Shown piece after piece: positions 27,995 through 45,685 of a DNA stretch of 64,000 bases; position 1 is the first letter of the stretch; each line of letters begins with the position of its first letter. The stretch lies in NCBI RefSeq assembly GCF_003018255.1, contig NZ_CP027440.1; one strand, 5' to 3'. The translations under genes and the position numbers were made by a program. The DNA is from Escherichia coli (GTDB lineage: Bacteria; Pseudomonadota; Gammaproteobacteria; Enterobacterales; Enterobacteriaceae). A model generated the notes under the pieces. That model was given only the letters and a program-made list of their open reading frames with translations, was not told where the DNA came from and did not search any database.

Positions 27995-28125
27995 GGCTTA
28001 ACCACTAAACACTCTAGCCTCTGCACCTGGGTCAACTGATACGGTGCTTTGGCCGTGACAATGCTCGTAAAGATTGCCACCAGGGCGAAGGAAGAAATGA
28101 CTTCGCCTCCCGTATCTGGAAAGGT
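27995..28125 (+). ncRNA. molybdenum cofactor (Moco) riboswitch / moaA leader
   Basis: Structured GC-rich leader directly 5' of moaA (ctctgcacctgggtcaactgatacggtgctttggccgtgacaatgctcgtaaagattgccaccagggcgaaggaag...); the Moco RNA motif is established at this position in E. coli. Boundaries approximate. Confidence 0.55.
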
Positions 28126-28129
28126 GTAC

Positions 28130-29119
28130 ATGGCTTCACAACTGACTGATGCATTTGCGCGTAAGTTTTACTACTTGCGCCTGTCGATTACTGATGTGTG
28201 TAACTTTCGTTGCACCTACTGCCTGCCGGATGGCTACAAACCGAGCGGCGTCACCAATAAAGGCTTTCTTACCGTCGATGAAATTCGCCGGGTTACGCGC
28301 GCCTTTGCCAGTCTGGGCACCGAAAAAGTGCGCCTGACAGGCGGTGAGCCGTCTTTACGCCGCGACTTTACCGATATCATCGCCGCTGTGCGGGAAAACG
28401 ACGCTATCCGCCAGATTGCGGTCACCACCAATGGTTACCGTCTGGAACGCGATGTGGCGAACTGGCGCGATGCGGGACTTACTGGCATCAACGTCAGCGT
28501 TGATAGCCTTGACGCTCGCCAGTTTCATGCCATTACCGGGCAGGATAAATTCAACCAGGTCATGGCAGGGATCGATGCTGCATTTGAGGCCGGTTTTGAG
28601 AAGGTCAAAGTCAATACCGTGCTGATGCGTGATGTTAATCATCATCAGCTCGACACCTTTCTGAACTGGATCCAGCATCGCCCTATCCAGCTGCGTTTCA
28701 TCGAATTGATGGAAACGGGTGAGGGCAGCGAGCTCTTCCGTAAGCATCACATCTCTGGTCAGGTTCTGCGTGACGAGCTACTGCGTCGCGGCTGGATCCA
28801 CCAATTACGTCAACGCAGCGACGGTCCCGCGCAAGTCTTTTGTCATCCGGATTACGCCGGAGAGATTGGCCTTATCATGCCGTATGAAAAAGACTTCTGC
28901 GCCACTTGCAACCGCCTGCGCGTTTCCTCCATTGGTAAACTCCATCTCTGCCTGTTTGGTGAAGGCGGCGTTAACCTGCGCGATCTGCTGGAAGACGATA
29001 CCCAGCAACAGGCGCTGGAAGCGCGTATTTCAGCGGCGCTGCGGGAGAAGAAACAGACCCATTTCCTGCATCAAAACAACACCGGTATTACGCAAAACTT
29101 ATCGTACATTGGCGGCTAA
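28130..29119 (+). CDS. moaA: GTP 3',8-cyclase (radical SAM) MoaA
   Basis: ORF trimmed to [31 protein letters not shown] (CxxxCxxC), 329 aa. Confidence 0.95.
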
Positions 29120-30969: not shown

Positions 30970-31674
30970 ATGGACAGATTCCCACGTTCTGATTCAATTG
31001 TACAACCCCGGGCTGGCTTGCAAACTTATATGGCGCAAGTCTATGGCTGGATGACCGTTGGCTTGTTGCTGACCGCATTTGTTGCCTGGTATGCGGCTAA
31101 TTCCGCGGCCGTGATGGAGCTGTTGTTCACTAACCGTGTCTTTTTAATCGGTCTGATCATCGCGCAATTAGCATTGGTTATTGTGTTATCAGCGATGATT
31201 CAAAAGCTGAGCGCAGGTGTAACGACGATGCTCTTTATGCTTTATTCGGCGCTGACGGGTCTTACGCTTTCCAGTATTTTCATTGTTTATACCGCTGCTT
31301 CTATCGCCAGTACTTTCGTCGTTACTGCCGGAATGTTTGGCGCAATGAGCCTGTACGGTTACACCACGAAGCGCGATCTAAGCGGCTTTGGCAATATGCT
31401 GTTTATGGCGTTAATCGGCATTGTGCTGGCATCGCTGGTCAACTTCTGGCTGAAAAGCGAAGCATTGATGTGGGCAGTTACCTACATTGGCGTGATTGTC
31501 TTTGTCGGATTGACGGCGTATGACACGCAGAAATTGAAAAATATGGGTGAGCAGATTGATACCCGCGACACGTCGAACCTGCGCAAATATTCCATTCTTG
31601 GCGCGTTAACCTTGTATCTGGACTTCATCAACTTGTTCCTGATGTTGTTGCGGATCTTCGGCAACCGCCGTTAA
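30970..31674 (+). CDS. ybhL: BAX inhibitor-1 (BI-1/YccA) family inner membrane protein
   Basis: ORF trimmed to MDRFPRSDSIVQPRAGLQTYMAQVYGWMTVGLLLTAF (234 aa), 7-TM profile. Confidence 0.9.
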   Translation: MDRFPRSDSIVQPRAGLQTYMAQVYGWMTVGLLLTAFVAWYAANSAAVMELLFTNRVFLIGLIIAQLALVIVLSAMIQKLSAGVTTMLFMLYSALTGLTLSSIFIVYTAASIASTFVVTAGMFGAMSLYGYTTKRDLSGFGNMLFMALIGIVLASLVNFWLKSEALMWAVTYIGVIVFVGLTAYDTQKLKNMGEQIDTRDTSNLRKYSILGALTLYLDFINLFLMLLRIFGNRR

Positions 31675-31691: not shown

Positions 31692-31720
31692 TATCCCGGC
31701 CATGTGTCGGGATTTTTTTC
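31692..31720 (+). terminator. rho-independent terminator after ybhL
   Basis: atcccggc-catgtg-tcgggat followed by ttttttc. Confidence 0.65.
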
Positions 31721-31879
31721 TTACGAAAAAACGACACTTAACAAGTACCAAGTATAAAATATGCCTTATGGCCGAGCGGAAGTGTTTTCCGTATCCATAA
31801 ATACAAAAGTATTTTGTATGCGTGGCTTTAAATTTATTGATGGTGAATATTAATATTTTTTCTAAGGATAACTAAAAGA

Positions 31880-32269
31880 ATGGAATCATACTCGCAAAGC
31901 AGCAATAAATTAGATTTTCAGCACGAAGCCAGGATATTAAACGGCATATGGCTCATTACCGCTTTGGGTTTGGTGACAACCGCAGGACTGGCCCTGGTGA
32001 TCATCAGGAATGCCGCATTAATGAGTGAACGGCCCATTTGGGTAATAAGTTGCTTAATGATTGTTTTATGGTCAGGCATTATCTCGCATGGACGAAATAA
32101 GCTCCTTGAACTGGCAGGAAAATGCCATAGCGAAGAGTTGTGGAGTCCGGTTAGTTGCGCTTTTACAGGTGCATTAACACTCTATTACTATTTTATCGGC
32201 TTCTTTGGGATACTTGCCGCGATAGCTATAACGCTTGTCTGGCAAAGGCATACGCGGTTTTTTCATTAG
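31880..32269 (+). CDS. ybhM: small inner membrane protein, YbhM-like, shorter than I recall for K-12
   Basis: 129-aa ORF MESYSQSSNKLDFQHEARILNGIWLITALGLVTTAGLALVII with 3-4 hydrophobic segments, at the ybhM position. Confidence 0.6.
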   Translation: MESYSQSSNKLDFQHEARILNGIWLITALGLVTTAGLALVIIRNAALMSERPIWVISCLMIVLWSGIISHGRNKLLELAGKCHSEELWSPVSCAFTGALTLYYYFIGFFGILAAIAITLVWQRHTRFFH

Positions 32270-32304
32270 TCGTAAATGCACATACTAAAGAACTTAACCG
32301 AACT

Positions 32305-33261
32305 TCACATCGCCGCTTCATTTTTCGCCCGCAGCTTCTTCGCCTGGCTTTCCAGTAGCAGGTAACAGATCAGCGCCAGCAGCAGTGGGATAAAGTAATA
32401 CAGCACACGGTAAGCGAGTAGGGCGGCGATAATGCTACCTTTGGAGGTATGCTCCCCAGCCAGTAGTGCGATAAACACCGCTTCCAGCACACCAATCCCC
32501 GCCGGAATATGCACAATCACCCCGGCAATACTACTAACCAGCAACACGCCCAGTACAAAGAAATAGTTCACGCTTTGACCAAGTAACAGCCAGATTATCG
32601 CTCCCATGACCATCCAGTTAACGCTGGAAATCAGCATCTGGGCGAGGGCGAATTTCCATGAAGGCAGCACCAGCTTTTGCCCTTTGATGGTCATATGGCG
32701 GTGCTTCGCGAAAGCGCAAAACCACAAATAAACCGCGATAATCATCAATAAGCCAATGCCGAGAATACGCAGCGTGGTTTGATCGACATACCAGTGATCC
32801 GGCAGCTCCACCACGCCTGCGGTAAAGATAATCCCGGCCAGCAAAATATAGCCCAGCCAGTTGGTGGTAATACTGAGCGAGAAAATCCGCGTAATAGTGC
32901 TGCCCGGTAACCCTAGCCGCGAGTACAAACGATAGCGCATACCTATGCCGCCGACCCAGGTACTGAGCGTCAGGTTGAAGGCGTAGCAGATAAACGACAC
33001 CAGCATCACCTGGCGCTTCGCCAGTTTGTGACCGCAGTAGAAACGGGCGAGCAGGTCATAGCAGCCGTAAATCAGATAGCTGACGACCACCAGCCCGACC
33101 GCACTGAGCAGCGCAACGCGATTGTAGTCGCGGATGACCTTCCAGACCTCTTCCCAGTCCACTTTTTTGGCGTAGACCACCAGCAACACAATCACCGCGA
33201 TAAAAAACAGCCAGGTGAGGATCTTCTTTGCTAAGCGCCAGCGCGGGTGTGATTTACTCAT
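32305..33261 (-). CDS. ybhN: inner membrane protein YbhN (lysylphosphatidylglycerol-synthase-like TM domain)
   Basis: 318-aa polytopic [33 protein letters not shown]; start overlaps the clsB stop. Confidence 0.9.
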   Translation of the reverse strand: MSKSHPRWRLAKKILTWLFFIAVIVLLVVYAKKVDWEEVWKVIRDYNRVALLSAVGLVVVSYLIYGCYDLLARFYCGHKLAKRQVMLVSFICYAFNLTLSTWVGGIGMRYRLYSRLGLPGSTITRIFSLSITTNWLGYILLAGIIFTAGVVELPDHWYVDQTTLRILGIGLLMIIAVYLWFCAFAKHRHMTIKGQKLVLPSWKFALAQMLISSVNWMVMGAIIWLLLGQSVNYFFVLGVLLVSSIAGVIVHIPAGIGVLEAVFIALLAGEHTSKGSIIAALLAYRVLYYFIPLLLALICYLLLESQAKKLRAKNEAAM

Positions 33262-41634: not shown

Positions 41635-42996
41635 ATGTCTTTCGATTCTTTGGGTTTAAGCCCTGATATCCTGCGCGCCGTTGCCGAGCAGGGTTACCGT
41701 GAACCCACCCCTATTCAGCAGCAGGCGATCCCTGCGGTGCTGGAAGGCCGCGACCTGATGGCCAGCGCCCAGACCGGTACCGGCAAAACAGCGGGCTTTA
41801 CGCTGCCGCTGTTGCAACACCTGATCACTCGCCAGCCGCACGCCAAAGGGCGTCGTCCGGTACGCGCGCTCATTCTTACCCCGACCCGTGAACTGGCGGC
41901 GCAGATTGGCGAAAACGTCCGTGATTACAGCAAATATCTGAACATTCGTTCGCTGGTGGTGTTTGGCGGTGTCAGCATTAACCCACAAATGATGAAGTTG
42001 CGCGGCGGCGTTGATGTGCTGGTGGCAACGCCGGGACGTCTGCTGGACCTGGAACATCAAAATGCAGTGAAGCTGGATCAGGTTGAAATCCTCGTCCTTG
42101 ATGAAGCTGACCGCATGCTCGACATGGGCTTTATCCACGATATCCGTCGCGTGTTAACAAAACTGCCAGCGAAGCGCCAGAACCTGTTGTTCTCCGCGAC
42201 CTTCTCTGACGATATTAAAGCCCTGGCGGAAAAACTGTTGCACAACCCGCTGGAAATCGAAGTGGCACGCCGCAATACCGCGTCTGATCAGGTGACCCAG
42301 CACGTTCACTTTGTCGATAAGAAACGCAAACGCGAATTGCTGTCGCATATGATTGGGAAAGGGAACTGGCAGCAGGTGCTGGTGTTTACCCGTACCAAAC
42401 ATGGCGCTAACCATCTGGCTGAACAGCTTAATAAAGATGGCATCCGTAGTGCGGCGATCCACGGTAATAAATCGCAAGGTGCGCGTACTCGTGCGCTGGC
42501 TGATTTTAAATCGGGCGATATTCGTGTACTGGTGGCAACTGACATCGCTGCGCGCGGCCTGGATATTGAAGAGCTGCCGCACGTGGTCAACTATGAACTG
42601 CCAAACGTACCGGAAGATTATGTCCACCGTATCGGGCGTACCGGTCGTGCGGCTGCTACCGGTGAAGCGTTGTCGCTGGTGTGTGTTGATGAACACAAAC
42701 TGCTGCGTGATATCGAAAAACTGCTGAAAAAAGAGATCCCGCGCATTGCGATTCCGGGTTATGAGCCGGACCCGTCAATCAAAGCCGAACCGATCCAGAA
42801 CGGTCGCCAGCAACGTGGCGGCGGTCGTGGGCAAGGTGGTGGTCGCGGTCAACAGCAACCACGCCGTGGAGAAGGTGGCGCAAAATCTGCAAGTGCGAAA
42901 CCTGCAGAAAAACCGTCTCGCCGCCTCGGCGATGCCAAACCGGCAGGCGAACAACAACGTCGCCGCCGTCCACGTAAACCTGCCGCTGCGCAGTAA
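41635..42996 (+). CDS. rhlE: ATP-dependent RNA helicase RhlE (DEAD-box)
   Basis: 453-aa ORF with Q-motif, [15 protein letters not shown] and HRIGRTGR motifs and an RGG-rich basic tail. Confidence 0.96.
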
Positions 42997-43004
42997 TCTT
43001 TTGA

Positions 43005-43150
<146 letters not shown>

Positions 43151-43230
43151 TCACAACAAGCACTTGTCAGCCATTTGCGAGCGCGGCAAAAAGATTTCTC
43201 TGTTTTAACGCCCACAAGCCACCCGATGCG

Positions 43231-43536
43231 TTACTTCTCCGCAGCCAATTGTCCGCGCAACGCCATTAAAAGGTACCCCAGGCGATTCTTGCCCTGACCA
43301 TTACCGCTATCTCCCCAGTAAGCATCATTTTGCGTATGCTCAACCAGTTTTGCGGACGCGGTTGCCAGCAAGAGTGTACGCAGTTCTGCATGTTGTTCGA
43401 ATTTAGCGCGAAGCGCTTTACGCATCATCCTGCTGGTTATTGCGAGCCGCTTTCCAGAAACAGAAAAACCATTACCCCTGAAAACCGAAAAATGCCACAA
43501 TATTGGCTGTTTATACAGTATTTCAGGTTTTCTCAT
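43231..43536 (-). pseudogene. ybiA: YbiA-like (DUF1768 N-glycosidase family) gene, apparently 5'-truncated
   Basis: 101-aa ORF whose C-terminal ~64 aa (MRKALRAKFEQHAELR...NRLGYLLMALRGQLAAEK) match YbiA as I recall it; N-terminal 37 codons run through the dinG promoter and LexA box and abut the dinG ATG. Confidence 0.5.
43501..43520. promoter_or_regulatory. non-canonical LexA box of dinG
   Basis: tattggctgtttatacagta, with a good right half (ATACAGTA) and degenerate left half, about 15 bp upstream of the dinG ATG. Confidence 0.65.
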
Positions 43537-45685
43537 GGCATTAACCGCCGCGCTTAAAGCGCAAATTGCCGCCTGGTATAAGGCGCTTCAGGAACAGATC
43601 CCCGACTTTATTCCCCGTGCGCCGCAGCGGCAGATGATTGCGGACGTCGCCAAAACGCTGGCCGGAGAAGAAGGGCGGCATCTGGCGATTGAAGCACCCA
43701 CCGGCGTTGGGAAAACGCTCTCCTATTTGATTCCCGGCATCGCCATTGCCCGCGAAGAGCAAAAAACGCTGGTGGTGAGTACCGCCAACGTGGCATTGCA
43801 GGATCAGATCTACAGTAAAGATTTGCCTCTGCTGAAAAAGATCATTCCCGATCTTAAATTCACTGCTGCTTTTGGGCGTGGGCGCTACGTTTGTCCGCGT
43901 AATCTGACAGCGCTTGCCAGTACTGAACCCACGCAACAGGATCTGCTGGCGTTTCTTGACGACGAGCTGACGCCGAACAATCAGGAAGAGCAAAAACGTT
44001 GTGCGAAGCTGAAGGGCGATCTCGACACTTATAAATGGGATGGTCTGCGCGATCATACGGATATCGCCATTGATGACGATCTCTGGCGTCGTTTAAGTAC
44101 CGACAAAGCCAGCTGCCTCAACCGCAACTGTTACTACTATCGTGAATGCCCGTTTTTTGTTGCTCGTCGGGAGATTCAGGAAGCGGAAGTGGTGGTGGCA
44201 AACCATGCGCTGGTGATGGCGGCGATGGAAAGCGAAGCCGTACTACCTGACCCGAAAAATCTGCTGCTGGTGCTGGACGAAGGTCATCACCTGCCAGATG
44301 TGGCGCGGGATGCGCTGGAGATGAGCGCCGAAATCACCGCGCCCTGGTATCGGCTACAGCTGGACTTGTTCACGAAACTGGTCGCTACCTGCATGGAGCA
44401 GTTTCGCCCGAAGACCATCCCACCGCTGGCGATCCCTGAACGTTTGAATGCGCATTGTGAAGAGCTGTATGAGCTTATCGCCTCGTTAAACAACATTCTC
44501 AATCTCTACATGCCTGCCGGGCAGGAGGCAGAGCACCGTTTTGCGATGGGCGAACTGCCTGATGAAGTGCTGGAGATCTGCCAGCGGCTGGCAAAACTCA
44601 CCGAGATGCTGCGTGGCCTGGCGGAGTTATTTCTTAACGATTTAAGTGAGAAAACCGGTAGCCATGACATTGTACGTCTGCATCGGTTGATTTTGCAGAT
44701 GAATCGCGCGTTGGGGATGTTCGAGGCGCAAAGCAAACTCTGGCGGCTGGCGTCTCTGGCGCAATCTTCCGGTGCGCCGGTGACTAAATGGGCGACGCGG
44801 GAAGAGCGCGAAGGGCAGCTGCATCTCTGGTTTCACTGTGTGGGTATTCGTGTCAGCGATCAGCTGGAAAGGCTGCTGTGGCGCAGTATTCCGCACATTA
44901 TTGTCACTTCCGCGACCTTACGTTCGCTGAACAGTTTTTCGCGTTTACAGGAGATGAGTGGTCTGAAAGAGAAAGCGGGCGACCGCTTTGTGGCGCTGGA
45001 TTCGCCCTTTAACCACTGCGAACAGGGCAAAATTGTTATTCCCCGGATGCGCTTTGAGCCTTCCATCGACAACGAAGAGCAGCACATTGCTGAAATGGCA
45101 GCCTTTTTCCGTGAGCAGGTGGAGAGCAAAAAACATCTCGGTATGTTGGTACTGTTTGCCAGCGGGCGTGCGATGCAGCGCTTTCTCGACTATGTGACGG
45201 ATTTACGCCTGATGTTGCTGGTGCAGGGCGATCAGCCACGTTATCGCTTAGTTGAACTGCACCGCAAACGCGTTGCCAACGGTGAGCGTAGCGTGCTGGT
45301 GGGCTTACAGTCCTTTGCCGAAGGTCTTGATCTGAAAGGCGATCTGCTCAGTCAGGTGCATATCCACAAGATCGCTTTTCCGCCCATCGACAGTCCGGTG
45401 GTGATCACCGAAGGTGAATGGCTGAAAAGCCTCAACCGCTATCCGTTTGAGGTGCAAAGCCTGCCGAGCGCTTCGTTTAACCTGATTCAGCAGGTTGGGC
45501 GACTGATTCGAAGCCACGGTTGCTGGGGGGAAGTGGTTATCTACGACAAACGCTTGCTGACCAAAAATTATGGCAAGCGACTACTGGATGCATTACCGGT
45601 ATTTCCGATAGAGCAACCGGAAGTCCCTGAAGGTATAGTTAAAAAGAAAGAAAAAACGAAATCCCCACGCCGTCGGCGGCGTTAA
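43535..45685 (+). CDS. dinG: ATP-dependent DNA helicase DinG (Fe-S, superfamily 2)
   Basis: 716-aa ORF MALTAALKAQIAAWYKALQEQIPDFIPRAPQRQMI with Walker A APTGVGKT and DEGHH box. Confidence 0.96.
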   Translation: MALTAALKAQIAAWYKALQEQIPDFIPRAPQRQMIADVAKTLAGEEGRHLAIEAPTGVGKTLSYLIPGIAIAREEQKTLVVSTANVALQDQIYSKDLPLLKKIIPDLKFTAAFGRGRYVCPRNLTALASTEPTQQDLLAFLDDELTPNNQEEQKRCAKLKGDLDTYKWDGLRDHTDIAIDDDLWRRLSTDKASCLNRNCYYYRECPFFVARREIQEAEVVVANHALVMAAMESEAVLPDPKNLLLVLDEGHHLPDVARDALEMSAEITAPWYRLQLDLFTKLVATCMEQFRPKTIPPLAIPERLNAHCEELYELIASLNNILNLYMPAGQEAEHRFAMGELPDEVLEICQRLAKLTEMLRGLAELFLNDLSEKTGSHDIVRLHRLILQMNRALGMFEAQSKLWRLASLAQSSGAPVTKWATREEREGQLHLWFHCVGIRVSDQLERLLWRSIPHIIVTSATLRSLNSFSRLQEMSGLKEKAGDRFVALDSPFNHCEQGKIVIPRMRFEPSIDNEEQHIAEMAAFFREQVESKKHLGMLVLFASGRAMQRFLDYVTDLRLMLLVQGDQPRYRLVELHRKRVANGERSVLVGLQSFAEGLDLKGDLLSQVHIHKIAFPPIDSPVVITEGEWLKSLNRYPFEVQSLPSASFNLIQQVGRLIRSHGCWGEVVIYDKRLLTKNYGKRLLDALPVFPIEQPEVPEGIVKKKEKTKSPRRRRR

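What the first reader, a model, noticed from the sequence alone, without database searches (positions are those of the whole stretch)
31880..32269. ybhM is only 129 aa here, shorter than I recall for K-12
The ORF at the ybhM position has a normal start (MESYSQ...) and 3-4 hydrophobic segments, then stops 36 bp before the ybhN stop. I recall K-12 YbhM as about 237 aa with its 3' end overlapping ybhN, which would imply an internal deletion of roughly 0.3 kb here.
Basis: partly seen in the sequence, partly recalled or inferred. Interest (0 to 1): 0.4.

Follow-up and report, generated by a model that had tools for sequence, protein, structure and literature searches.

The report
Common in-frame deletion allele of ybhM
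This E. coli strain carries a common natural version of the little-studied membrane-protein gene ybhM that has lost 324 bases in frame, leaving a three-helix stump of a seven-helix protein; about one complete E. coli genome in ten has the same version, so the finding is real but ordinary.

Summary
Window 31880..32269 (+) is an intact 129-aa ORF at the ybhM position. K-12-type ybhM is 714 bp (237 aa). The window lacks exactly 324 bp (codons 39-146), in frame.

The deletion lies inside a 5-nt microhomology (TGGCC). This is part of an 11-nt imperfect direct repeat that encodes Gly-Leu-Ala in TM1 and again in TM5. The product joins the front of TM1 to the end of TM5 and keeps TM6 and TM7. Promoter hexamers, ribosome-binding region, start codon, stop codon and the 35-nt spacer to ybhN match K-12.

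The allele is not rare. The same junction occurs in 575 of 5426 complete E. coli genomes (10.6%), on at least 8 haplotypes. RefSeq already annotates it (WP_000446942.1).

Long or short, YbhM lacks both aspartates of the BI-1 pH sensor, and it is close to Escherichia-restricted.

My best reading is a slippage-type deletion in a fast-evolving, dispensable accessory gene. The stump cannot form the 7-helix fold. Whether it keeps some function is unresolved. Interest is low.

The parts
31880..32269 (+). Short ybhM allele: 129-aa ORF (390 nt with stop). It equals K-12 YbhM residues 1-38 fused to 147-237.
   Evidence: The product is identical to RefSeq WP_000446942.1. The exact protein is recorded on at least 1000 public contigs.
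31989..31993 (+). Deletion junction: the 5-nt microhomology TGGCC (gene nt 110-114). The 324 bp that follow it in long alleles are missing. Window reads GCAGGAC-TGGCC-CTGGTG.
   Evidence: Most long alleles read CAGGGCTGGCC|TGGGG on the left and CAGGGTTGGCC|CTGGT on the right, 324 nt apart. Every short allele has the left repeat joined to the right-hand continuation.
31934..32017 (+). Hybrid transmembrane helix, about residues 19-46. TM1 residues up to A38 are fused to the last third of TM5 (L39 onward). It carries the window-lineage Arg43 (AGG at 32006-32008).
   Evidence: AF2 helices are 6-43 and 134-154 in the long form and 8-46 in the short form. Arg43 is private to the window lineage.
32033..32260 (+). 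Retained TM6 (about residues 52-84), the TM6-TM7 loop, and TM7 (about residues 90-127). Pfam Bax1-I matches short-form residues 32-114, which runs from the junction into TM7 and corresponds to profile positions 130-205.
31731..31758 (+). ybhM promoter ACGACA-N16-TATAAA, with both hexamers identical to K-12. It is reported as a constitutive sigma-70 promoter with an H-NS site.
   Evidence: sequence; PMC3946193 via (SELEX-chip assignment in K-12).
31693..31722 (+). Terminator-like hairpin plus T-run after ybhL, which separates the ybhL and ybhM transcription units.
   Evidence: consensus scan only
32305..33261 (-). ybhN, convergent neighbour. There is a 35-nt spacer to the ybhM stop, as in K-12, and no overlap.
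30970..31674 (+). ybhL, the canonical BI-1 paralogue upstream (234 aa, both sensor aspartates present). Used as the full-length comparator.

Best explanation
The window carries a natural deletion allele of ybhM. A single 324-bp in-frame deletion arose between two copies of an 11-nt imperfect direct repeat, CAGGG(C/T)TGGCC, with 5 nt of perfect microhomology (TGGCC). The repeat encodes Gly-Leu-Ala in TM1 and again in TM5. Replication slippage or microhomology-mediated illegitimate recombination is the inferred cause. TM1 and TM5 cross the membrane in the same direction and four helix-equivalents are removed. The product should therefore still insert, as a 3-helix protein (TM1/5 hybrid, TM6, TM7) with native orientation, expressed from the unchanged promoter and ribosome-binding site. 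It cannot form the 7-helix BI-1 fold, so whatever the full-length protein does is most likely lost or strongly reduced. The allele persists because ybhM is a dispensable, fast-evolving, AT-rich accessory paralogue that already lacks the BI-1 pH-sensor aspartates. What is shown: the deletion, its junction, its frequency, the intact expression signals and the helix content. What is inferred: the slippage mechanism, membrane insertion and loss of function.
For: The deletion and junction are.

Polarity: E. albertii YbhM is 237 aa and the paralogues are full length.

Frequency: 575 of 5426 genomes share the same junction, and 4734 of 5426 keep the 324-bp segment.

The same gene carries other in-frame deletions, giving 224, 221, 216, 208 and 195 aa products. 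Several of them sit at short repeated residues such as FLIS, IIV and AI, which fits a slippage-prone coding sequence.

Helix mapping: the long model has 7 helices at pLDDT 92.5. The short model has 3 helices.

Pfam Bax1-I falls from 75.1 bits over the full profile to 31.8 bits, below the 34.1 cut-off, and covers only profile positions 130-205.

Signs of relaxed constraint on the stump:
- All 3 substitutions private to the window lineage are nonsynonymous, including Arg43 inside the hybrid helix.
- One abundant short haplotype changes the family-invariant Gly (G36E) and the nearly invariant Asn (N44D).
- One short haplotype has Q14*.
- An IS200C element sits between ybhL and the short gene in the ST405-type lineage.

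Dispensability: ybhM is interrupted by IS5 in the laboratory strain RR1/HB101 (PMC5379014).

YbhM lacks both sensor aspartates, with G179 and Y212 where 38-39 of 56 relatives have Asp.

The promoter and ribosome-binding site are unchanged.
Against: The reading frame is intact in 7 of 8 short haplotypes, which differ by up to 4.4%.

dN/dS between short haplotypes is 0.03-0.21, no higher than between long alleles at 0.04-0.29.

Changes seen only in short alleles (11 nonsynonymous, 6 synonymous) do not differ from changes seen only in long alleles. The script gave 24:13, Fisher p = 1.0. That count was inflated by LH09-a's divergent first 33 nt, and my hand recount without them is about 12:9.

No long allele among 5426 genomes is closer than about 96% to the window's short allele, so the allele is old yet not decayed.

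These points allow a retained function. Recombination between short and long alleles could also produce them.
Confidence: 0.6

Rival explanations
1. The 129-aa product is a functional three-helix membrane protein kept by selection. It could act as a small partner or modulator of the other BI-1 paralogues (YbhL, YccA) or of FtsH. The long/short difference would then be an old, possibly balanced, polymorphism.
For: The frame is intact on at least 7 divergent haplotypes in 575 genomes. dN/dS is low between short haplotypes. There is no excess of nonsynonymous private changes relative to long alleles. Three conservative changes around the junction (L31M, V43M, I53V) are shared by five short haplotypes and seen in no long allele, which could be compensatory. 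Expression signals are unchanged. TM6-TM7 is the most conserved part of YbhM across Escherichia.
Against: Charged residues have entered the hybrid helix in abundant haplotypes: R43, and E36 with D44. There is a nonsense allele and an IS200C upstream in one lineage. The short AF2 model is of low confidence, pLDDT 69.8 and pTM 0.46. Mosaic site patterns show recombination with long alleles, which can import low dN/dS without selection on the stump. No experimental function is known even for full-length YbhM.
Confidence: 0.2
2. The same deletion arose independently several times at a slippage hotspot, rather than once.
For: The left-flank variants at gene nt 97 and 108, only 2-13 nt from the junction, occur as A,A or G,G in both short and long alleles. 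Short haplotypes are no closer to each other than to long alleles in ybhM or in ybhN. Other deletions at short repeats occur in the same gene.
Against: Five nucleotides of perfect homology is a weak hotspot. No short allele has a near-identical long 'parent' among 5426 genomes, the best long match being about 95-96%. Five short haplotypes share three short-only substitutions, which indicates common descent for that group at least. Gene conversion ending at the heterology explains the flank pattern equally well.
Confidence: 0.25
3. The short ORF is a sequencing or assembly artefact, or K-12 carries an insertion and the short form is the normal gene.
For: None beyond the length difference itself.
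Against: 575 independent complete genomes share the junction. In total 4734 of 5426 E. coli genomes, plus E. albertii, carry the 324-bp segment. The segment encodes TM2-TM4, which align with YbhL and the Pfam profile over its full length.
Confidence: 0.01

Closest known systems
E. coli K-12 YbhM (b0787; RefSeq WP_000446911.1), uncharacterised BI-1/YccA-family inner-membrane protein
   Same: It is the same locus between ybhL and ybhN, with the same promoter hexamers, ribosome-binding region, start and stop. The retained 129 codons are 96% identical at protein level.
   Different: The window lacks codons 39-146, which cover the end of TM1, TM2-TM4 and two thirds of TM5. It also has three private substitutions, N7S, V43R and R92S.
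RefSeq WP_000446942.1 / WP_000446924.1 / WP_001522650.1 / WP_001586827.1 (129-aa 'Bax inhibitor 1 family protein' or 'hypothetical protein')
   Same: WP_000446942.1 is identical to the window product. The others are the same deletion allele on other haplotypes.
   Different: Nothing for WP_000446942.1. The others differ at 3-7 residues.
Bacillus subtilis YetJ (PDB 4PGR and related), the structural prototype of the BI-1/TMBIM family: a 7-helix pH-gated Ca2+ leak channel
   Same: Full-length YbhM matches the family profile end to end and is predicted to have 7 helices. The paralogue YbhL aligns directly with YetJ, including both sensor aspartates.
E. coli YbhL and YccA (canonical BI-1 paralogues)
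   Same: They belong to the same Pfam family, and ybhL is the adjacent gene.
   Different: YbhL shares about 24-27% identity with YbhM and keeps the di-aspartyl motif. YccA was not examined here.

Membership tests
BI-1 / TMBIM (Pfam PF01027 Bax1-I) | Sequence match to the family profile at or above the curated cut-off (34.1 bits) | tested here: not met
   The window's 129-aa product scores 31.8 bits (E 1.5e-7) on profile positions 130-205 only. K-12 YbhM scores 75.1 bits over positions 3-205. The short form is a recognisable fragment of a family member, not a complete domain.
BI-1 / TMBIM (Pfam PF01027 Bax1-I) | Seven transmembrane helices, with two three-helix layers around a central C-terminal helix | tested here: not met
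   The short form has 3 predicted helices, 8-46, 52-84 and 90-127. The long form has 7.
BI-1 / TMBIM (Pfam PF01027 Bax1-I) | Di-aspartyl pH sensor (BsYetJ Asp171 and Asp195; PMC8589314) | tested here: not met
   YbhM has Gly (Ala in E. albertii) and Tyr at these alignment columns, where 38 and 39 of 56 relatives have Asp. YbhL has both Asp. This holds for long and short alleles.
BI-1 / TMBIM (Pfam PF01027 Bax1-I) | Arginine (or His) latch in TM2 that closes the channel | tested here: not met
   TM2 (residues 54-70 of the long form) lies entirely within the deleted codons 39-146. I did not map the equivalent residue in long YbhM.
BI-1 / TMBIM (Pfam PF01027 Bax1-I) | Three-dimensional similarity of the full-length protein to solved BsYetJ | tested here: inconclusive
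   [not shown]
BI-1 / TMBIM (Pfam PF01027 Bax1-I) | pH-dependent Ca2+ leak activity | not testable with these tools
   This needs liposome flux or electrophysiology. No paper in the library reports any activity for YbhM.
ybhM orthologue group (Escherichia) | Position between ybhL and ybhN, and at least 90% identity of alignable residues to K-12 YbhM | tested here: met
   Synteny is moaE-ybhL-ybhM-ybhN-clsB. Identity over aligned residues is 96%.
Microhomology-mediated (slippage-type) deletion | Short direct repeats at both ends in the undeleted allele, with one copy left at the junction | tested here: met
   TGGCC occurs at gene nt 110-114 and 434-438 of long alleles, within CAGGG(C/T)TGGCC. 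A single copy remains in all short alleles.

The most novel reading that the evidence does not exclude
The three-helix remnant (TM1/5 hybrid, TM6, TM7) is not debris. On this reading it is a selectively maintained small membrane protein, and the long and short ybhM forms are an old polymorphism kept in E. coli, for example because the stump modulates the other BI-1 paralogues or FtsH. Intact frames on at least 7 divergent haplotypes, low dN/dS, and three shared conservative changes next to the junction do not exclude this.
Probability: 0.15. Interest if true: 0.45.

Novelty: already known. Interest (0 to 1): 0.15.

Why it matters
It matters little for biology at large. The main use is practical. 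Anyone annotating or comparing E. coli genomes should treat the 129-aa 'hypothetical protein' / 'Bax inhibitor 1 family protein' next to ybhL as a deletion allele of ybhM. It is not a separate gene and not an error. The locus is also a compact example of how low-complexity transmembrane coding sequence sheds helices in frame at short repeats. It offers a natural allelic series (237, 224, 221, 216, 208, 195 and 129 aa) for testing which parts of an uncharacterised BI-1 paralogue matter. If the stump proved functional, it would show a 7-helix channel-family protein reduced to a working 3-helix protein.

Tried and rejected
- **Sequence search of the PDB.** phmmer of YbhM against PDB sequences found nothing. 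Only YbhL reaches YetJ.
- **Test for relaxed selection.** I compared derived changes seen only in short alleles with those seen only in long alleles. The two do not differ, the sample is small, and the script's long-only count was inflated by the divergent first 33 nt of LH09-a. I recounted by hand to about 12:9.
- **Single versus recurrent origin.** Flank haplotypes were compared. The result is unresolved because the site patterns are mosaic.
- **Literature.** Only incidental mentions of ybhM exist, and no paper holds both YbhL and YccA.
- **Rfam.** There is no RNA family in or near the ORF.
- **Phylogroup of the window strain.** It was not determined because the typing markers lie outside the window. 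Only two carriers could be tied to sequence types from papers.
- **Rejected readings.** An assembly artefact and an insertion in K-12 are both excluded.

Full report
**Observation.** Window 31880..32269 (+) is an intact ATG-initiated ORF of 129 codons, MESYSQSSNKLDFQ...WQRHTRFFH. It lies between ybhL (30970..31674, +) and ybhN (32305..33261, -), in the order moaABCDE-ybhL-ybhM-ybhN-clsB-ybhP. The whole window is 99.987% identical to E. coli JNE23-011, NZ_AP045067.1. RefSeq annotates the ORF there as WP_000446942.1, 'Bax inhibitor 1 family protein'.

**Comparison with K-12.** In a K-12-derived genome, ybhM is 714 bp / 237 aa and ends 35 nt before the ybhN stop. The window has the same 35-nt spacer. 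The DNA alignment shows a single 324-bp gap and no other indel. The protein alignment shows residues 1-38 and 147-237 retained at 96% identity.

**Junction.** The missing stretch is gene nt 115-438, codons 39-146. In most long alleles the left end reads CAGGGCTGGCC|TGGGG. The right end, 324 nt downstream, reads CAGGGTTGGCC|CTGGT. Every short allele reads CAGG(G/A)CTGGCC|CTGGTG. The breakpoint therefore lies within the shared TGGCC of an 11-nt imperfect direct repeat. The repeat encodes G-L-A in TM1 and again in TM5. This is the signature of slippage or microhomology-mediated deletion, but the mechanism itself is inferred. The same gene also occurs in public data with other in-frame deletions, giving 224, 221, 216, 208 and 195 aa. 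Several of them sit at short repeated residues such as FLIS, IIV and AI.

**Polarity.** E. albertii YbhM is 237 aa. The paralogue YbhL and the Pfam profile align across the deleted part. The long form is ancestral.

**What the product looks like.**
- With a 56-sequence alignment, AlphaFold2 gives the long form 7 helices: 6-43, 54-70, 79-100, 103-127, 134-154, 159-189 and 197-235. Mean pLDDT is 92.5 and pTM 0.88.
- The deletion removes the last turn of TM1, all of TM2-TM4 and the first two thirds of TM5.
- The short form is predicted as 3 helices, 8-46, 52-84 and 90-127, with modest confidence (pLDDT 69.8, pTM 0.46). Hydropathy agrees.
- TM1 and TM5 have the same orientation in a 7-helix protein with a cytoplasmic N-terminus. 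The fusion should therefore leave TM6 and TM7 in their native topology. This is an inference.
- Pfam Bax1-I drops from 75.1 bits (profile 3-205) to 31.8 bits (profile 130-205), below the 34.1-bit cut-off.

**Expression signals.** The hexamers of the reported constitutive sigma-70 promoter ACGACA-N16-TATAAA are identical in the window (31731..31758) and K-12. That promoter is reported with an H-NS site (PMC3946193). The last 56 nt before the ATG are also identical. The region is AT-rich, GC 0.38-0.42 against 0.50-0.58 in the flanks.

**Population frequency.**
- The flanks are found in 5407 of 5426 complete E. coli genomes.
- The 324-bp segment is found in 4734.
- A 200-nt query centred on the junction, with the E-value limit set so that half-matches fail, hits 575 genomes (10.6%). 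Every hit is one ungapped piece.
- By identity to the window, 77 hits are at least 99% (many from poultry), 197 are 95-99% and 301 are 90-95%.
- The exact window protein is recorded on at least 1000 public contigs, in a 452-member cluster.
- Carriers include WCHEC4533, which is listed among ST405 genomes (PMC9037040), and MS14384, which is ST963 (PMC10024524).
- K-12, O157:H7, CFT073, SE15, ST131, O104:H4 and SMS-3-5 carry the long form.

**Age and origin.** I sampled 15 short-allele loci including the window, which gave 8 haplotypes. They differ from each other by up to 4.4% within ybhM (dS 0.09-0.17) and by 22-36 of 957 nt in ybhN. That is as much as they differ from long alleles. No long allele in the collection is more than about 96% identical to the window's short allele, so the allele is not recent.

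Five short haplotypes share three short-only substitutions (L31M, V43M, I53V), which indicates common descent for that group. The variants at nt 97 and 108, just left of the junction, segregate in both short and long alleles. That fits either a second independent deletion or gene conversion ending at the heterology. I could not decide between these.

**Selection.** The evidence points both ways.

For constraint:
- The frame is intact in 7 of 8 short haplotypes.
- dN/dS between short haplotypes is 0.03-0.21, against 0.04-0.29 between long alleles.
- Derived changes seen only in short alleles are 11 nonsynonymous to 6 synonymous. Those seen only in long alleles are about 12 to 9, so the two classes do not differ. 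The 12:9 figure is my hand recount after removing an artefact from LH09-a's divergent first 33 nt. The script itself gave 24:13 with Fisher p = 1.0.

For relaxation:
- All three substitutions private to the window lineage are nonsynonymous (N7S, V/M43R, R92S). They put an arginine into the hybrid helix.
- The WP5-S18-type haplotype, from the most divergent identity class, changes the family-invariant Gly and the nearly invariant Asn (G36E, N44D).
- Strain MEW has Q14*.
- The ST405-type lineage has IS200C between ybhL and the gene.

Mosaic site patterns show recombination between allele classes. This weakens any pairwise dN/dS argument.

**What YbhM is.**
- It belongs to the BI-1/TMBIM family by sequence profile.
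- The prototype, B. subtilis YetJ, is a 7-helix pH-sensitive Ca2+ channel. Its closed state depends on Arg60 and the Asp171-Asp195 pair (PMC8589314).
- YbhL aligns to YetJ with both aspartates. YbhM has Gly and Tyr at those positions, where 38-39 of 56 relatives have Asp.
- YbhM is close to Escherichia-specific. A word-indexed search found only E. coli, Shigella and E. albertii. An exhaustive HMMER search of 1.84 billion representatives found only about ten full-length relatives, at 25-35% identity, with E below 1e-10.
- The structure searches did not recover YetJ, so the fold test is inconclusive.
- No function is published. The only mentions are the promoter assignment, induction on lettuce in O157 Sakai, and an IS5 insertion in strain RR1.

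**Conclusion.** It is a frequent, already annotated natural allele of a poorly conserved accessory gene. It most likely arose by slippage at a short repeat and is tolerated because the gene is dispensable.

| Reading | Confidence |
|---|---|
| Deletion allele with loss or strong reduction of the 7-helix function | 0.6 |
| Retained function of the stump | 0.2 |

Whether the deletion arose once or more than once is a separate, open question. Novelty: already known, as database content, although no paper in the library describes it. Interest: low.

Noticed in passing
window about 43231-43428 (-), within 42950-43560: ybiA (NADAR-family N-glycosidase) is only a 198-nt remnant between rhlE and dinG, annotated as a pseudogene in the near-identical genome. 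This stretch is 611 nt here against 906 nt in K-12-type genomes. Roughly a fifth of complete E. coli genomes share the short state (5 of 24 evenly spaced rows). The stretch also contains a dispersed repeat with 22-39 copies per genome.
   Followed up: partly
L012 1194-1898 (E. coli LH09-a); L016 1848-2432 and L017 1785-2432 (E. albertii): Some E. coli and E. albertii carry a third BI-1-family gene between ybhL and ybhM. In those genomes YbhM has a different N-terminus (MNSRSANNITN / MKSYPSKNITN). The two-gene layout of the window and K-12 may itself be a derived state.
   Followed up: partly
L016/L017 3240-4590 (E. albertii): Downstream of ybhM, E. albertii has a 232-aa protein with no Pfam hit, a DUF3969 protein and a small ORF, followed directly by ybhQ. 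The ybhN-clsB-ybhP genes are absent from this position.
   Followed up: no
L005 1273-1731, L015 1273-1731, L024 1-117: An IS200C element is inserted between ybhL and the short ybhM in AR_0006, 1579 and DA33137. WCHEC4533 falls in the same identity class (94.0%) and is listed among ST405 genomes. The insertion may separate the gene from its promoter.
   Followed up: no
window 31700-33261 (ybhM-ybhN): Within-species diversity here is unusually high. Synonymous divergence is 0.1-0.25 in ybhM and nucleotide differences are 2-5% in ybhN between E. coli strains, against 0.6-1.7% in ybhL for most pairs. ybhM is AT-rich, GC 0.38-0.42.
   Followed up: partly
proteins P0014, P0017, P0018, P0027, P0031 (alignment A3): Other in-frame internal deletions of ybhM occur in public E. 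coli data: 16, 21, 13, 29 and 42 residues lost. Several of them sit at short repeated residues. There are also frameshifted and truncated forms.
   Followed up: partly
L022 387-776 (strain MEW); L025 387-776 (WP5-S18-ESBL-07): One short allele has a premature stop at codon 14. Another has G36E and N44D at positions that are invariant or nearly invariant across the BI-1 alignment.
   Followed up: yes
window 27998-28142 (+): The molybdenum-cofactor riboswitch upstream of moaA scores 103 bits. It is the only Rfam family at gathering score in the window.
   Followed up: no
[not shown]
   Followed up: no
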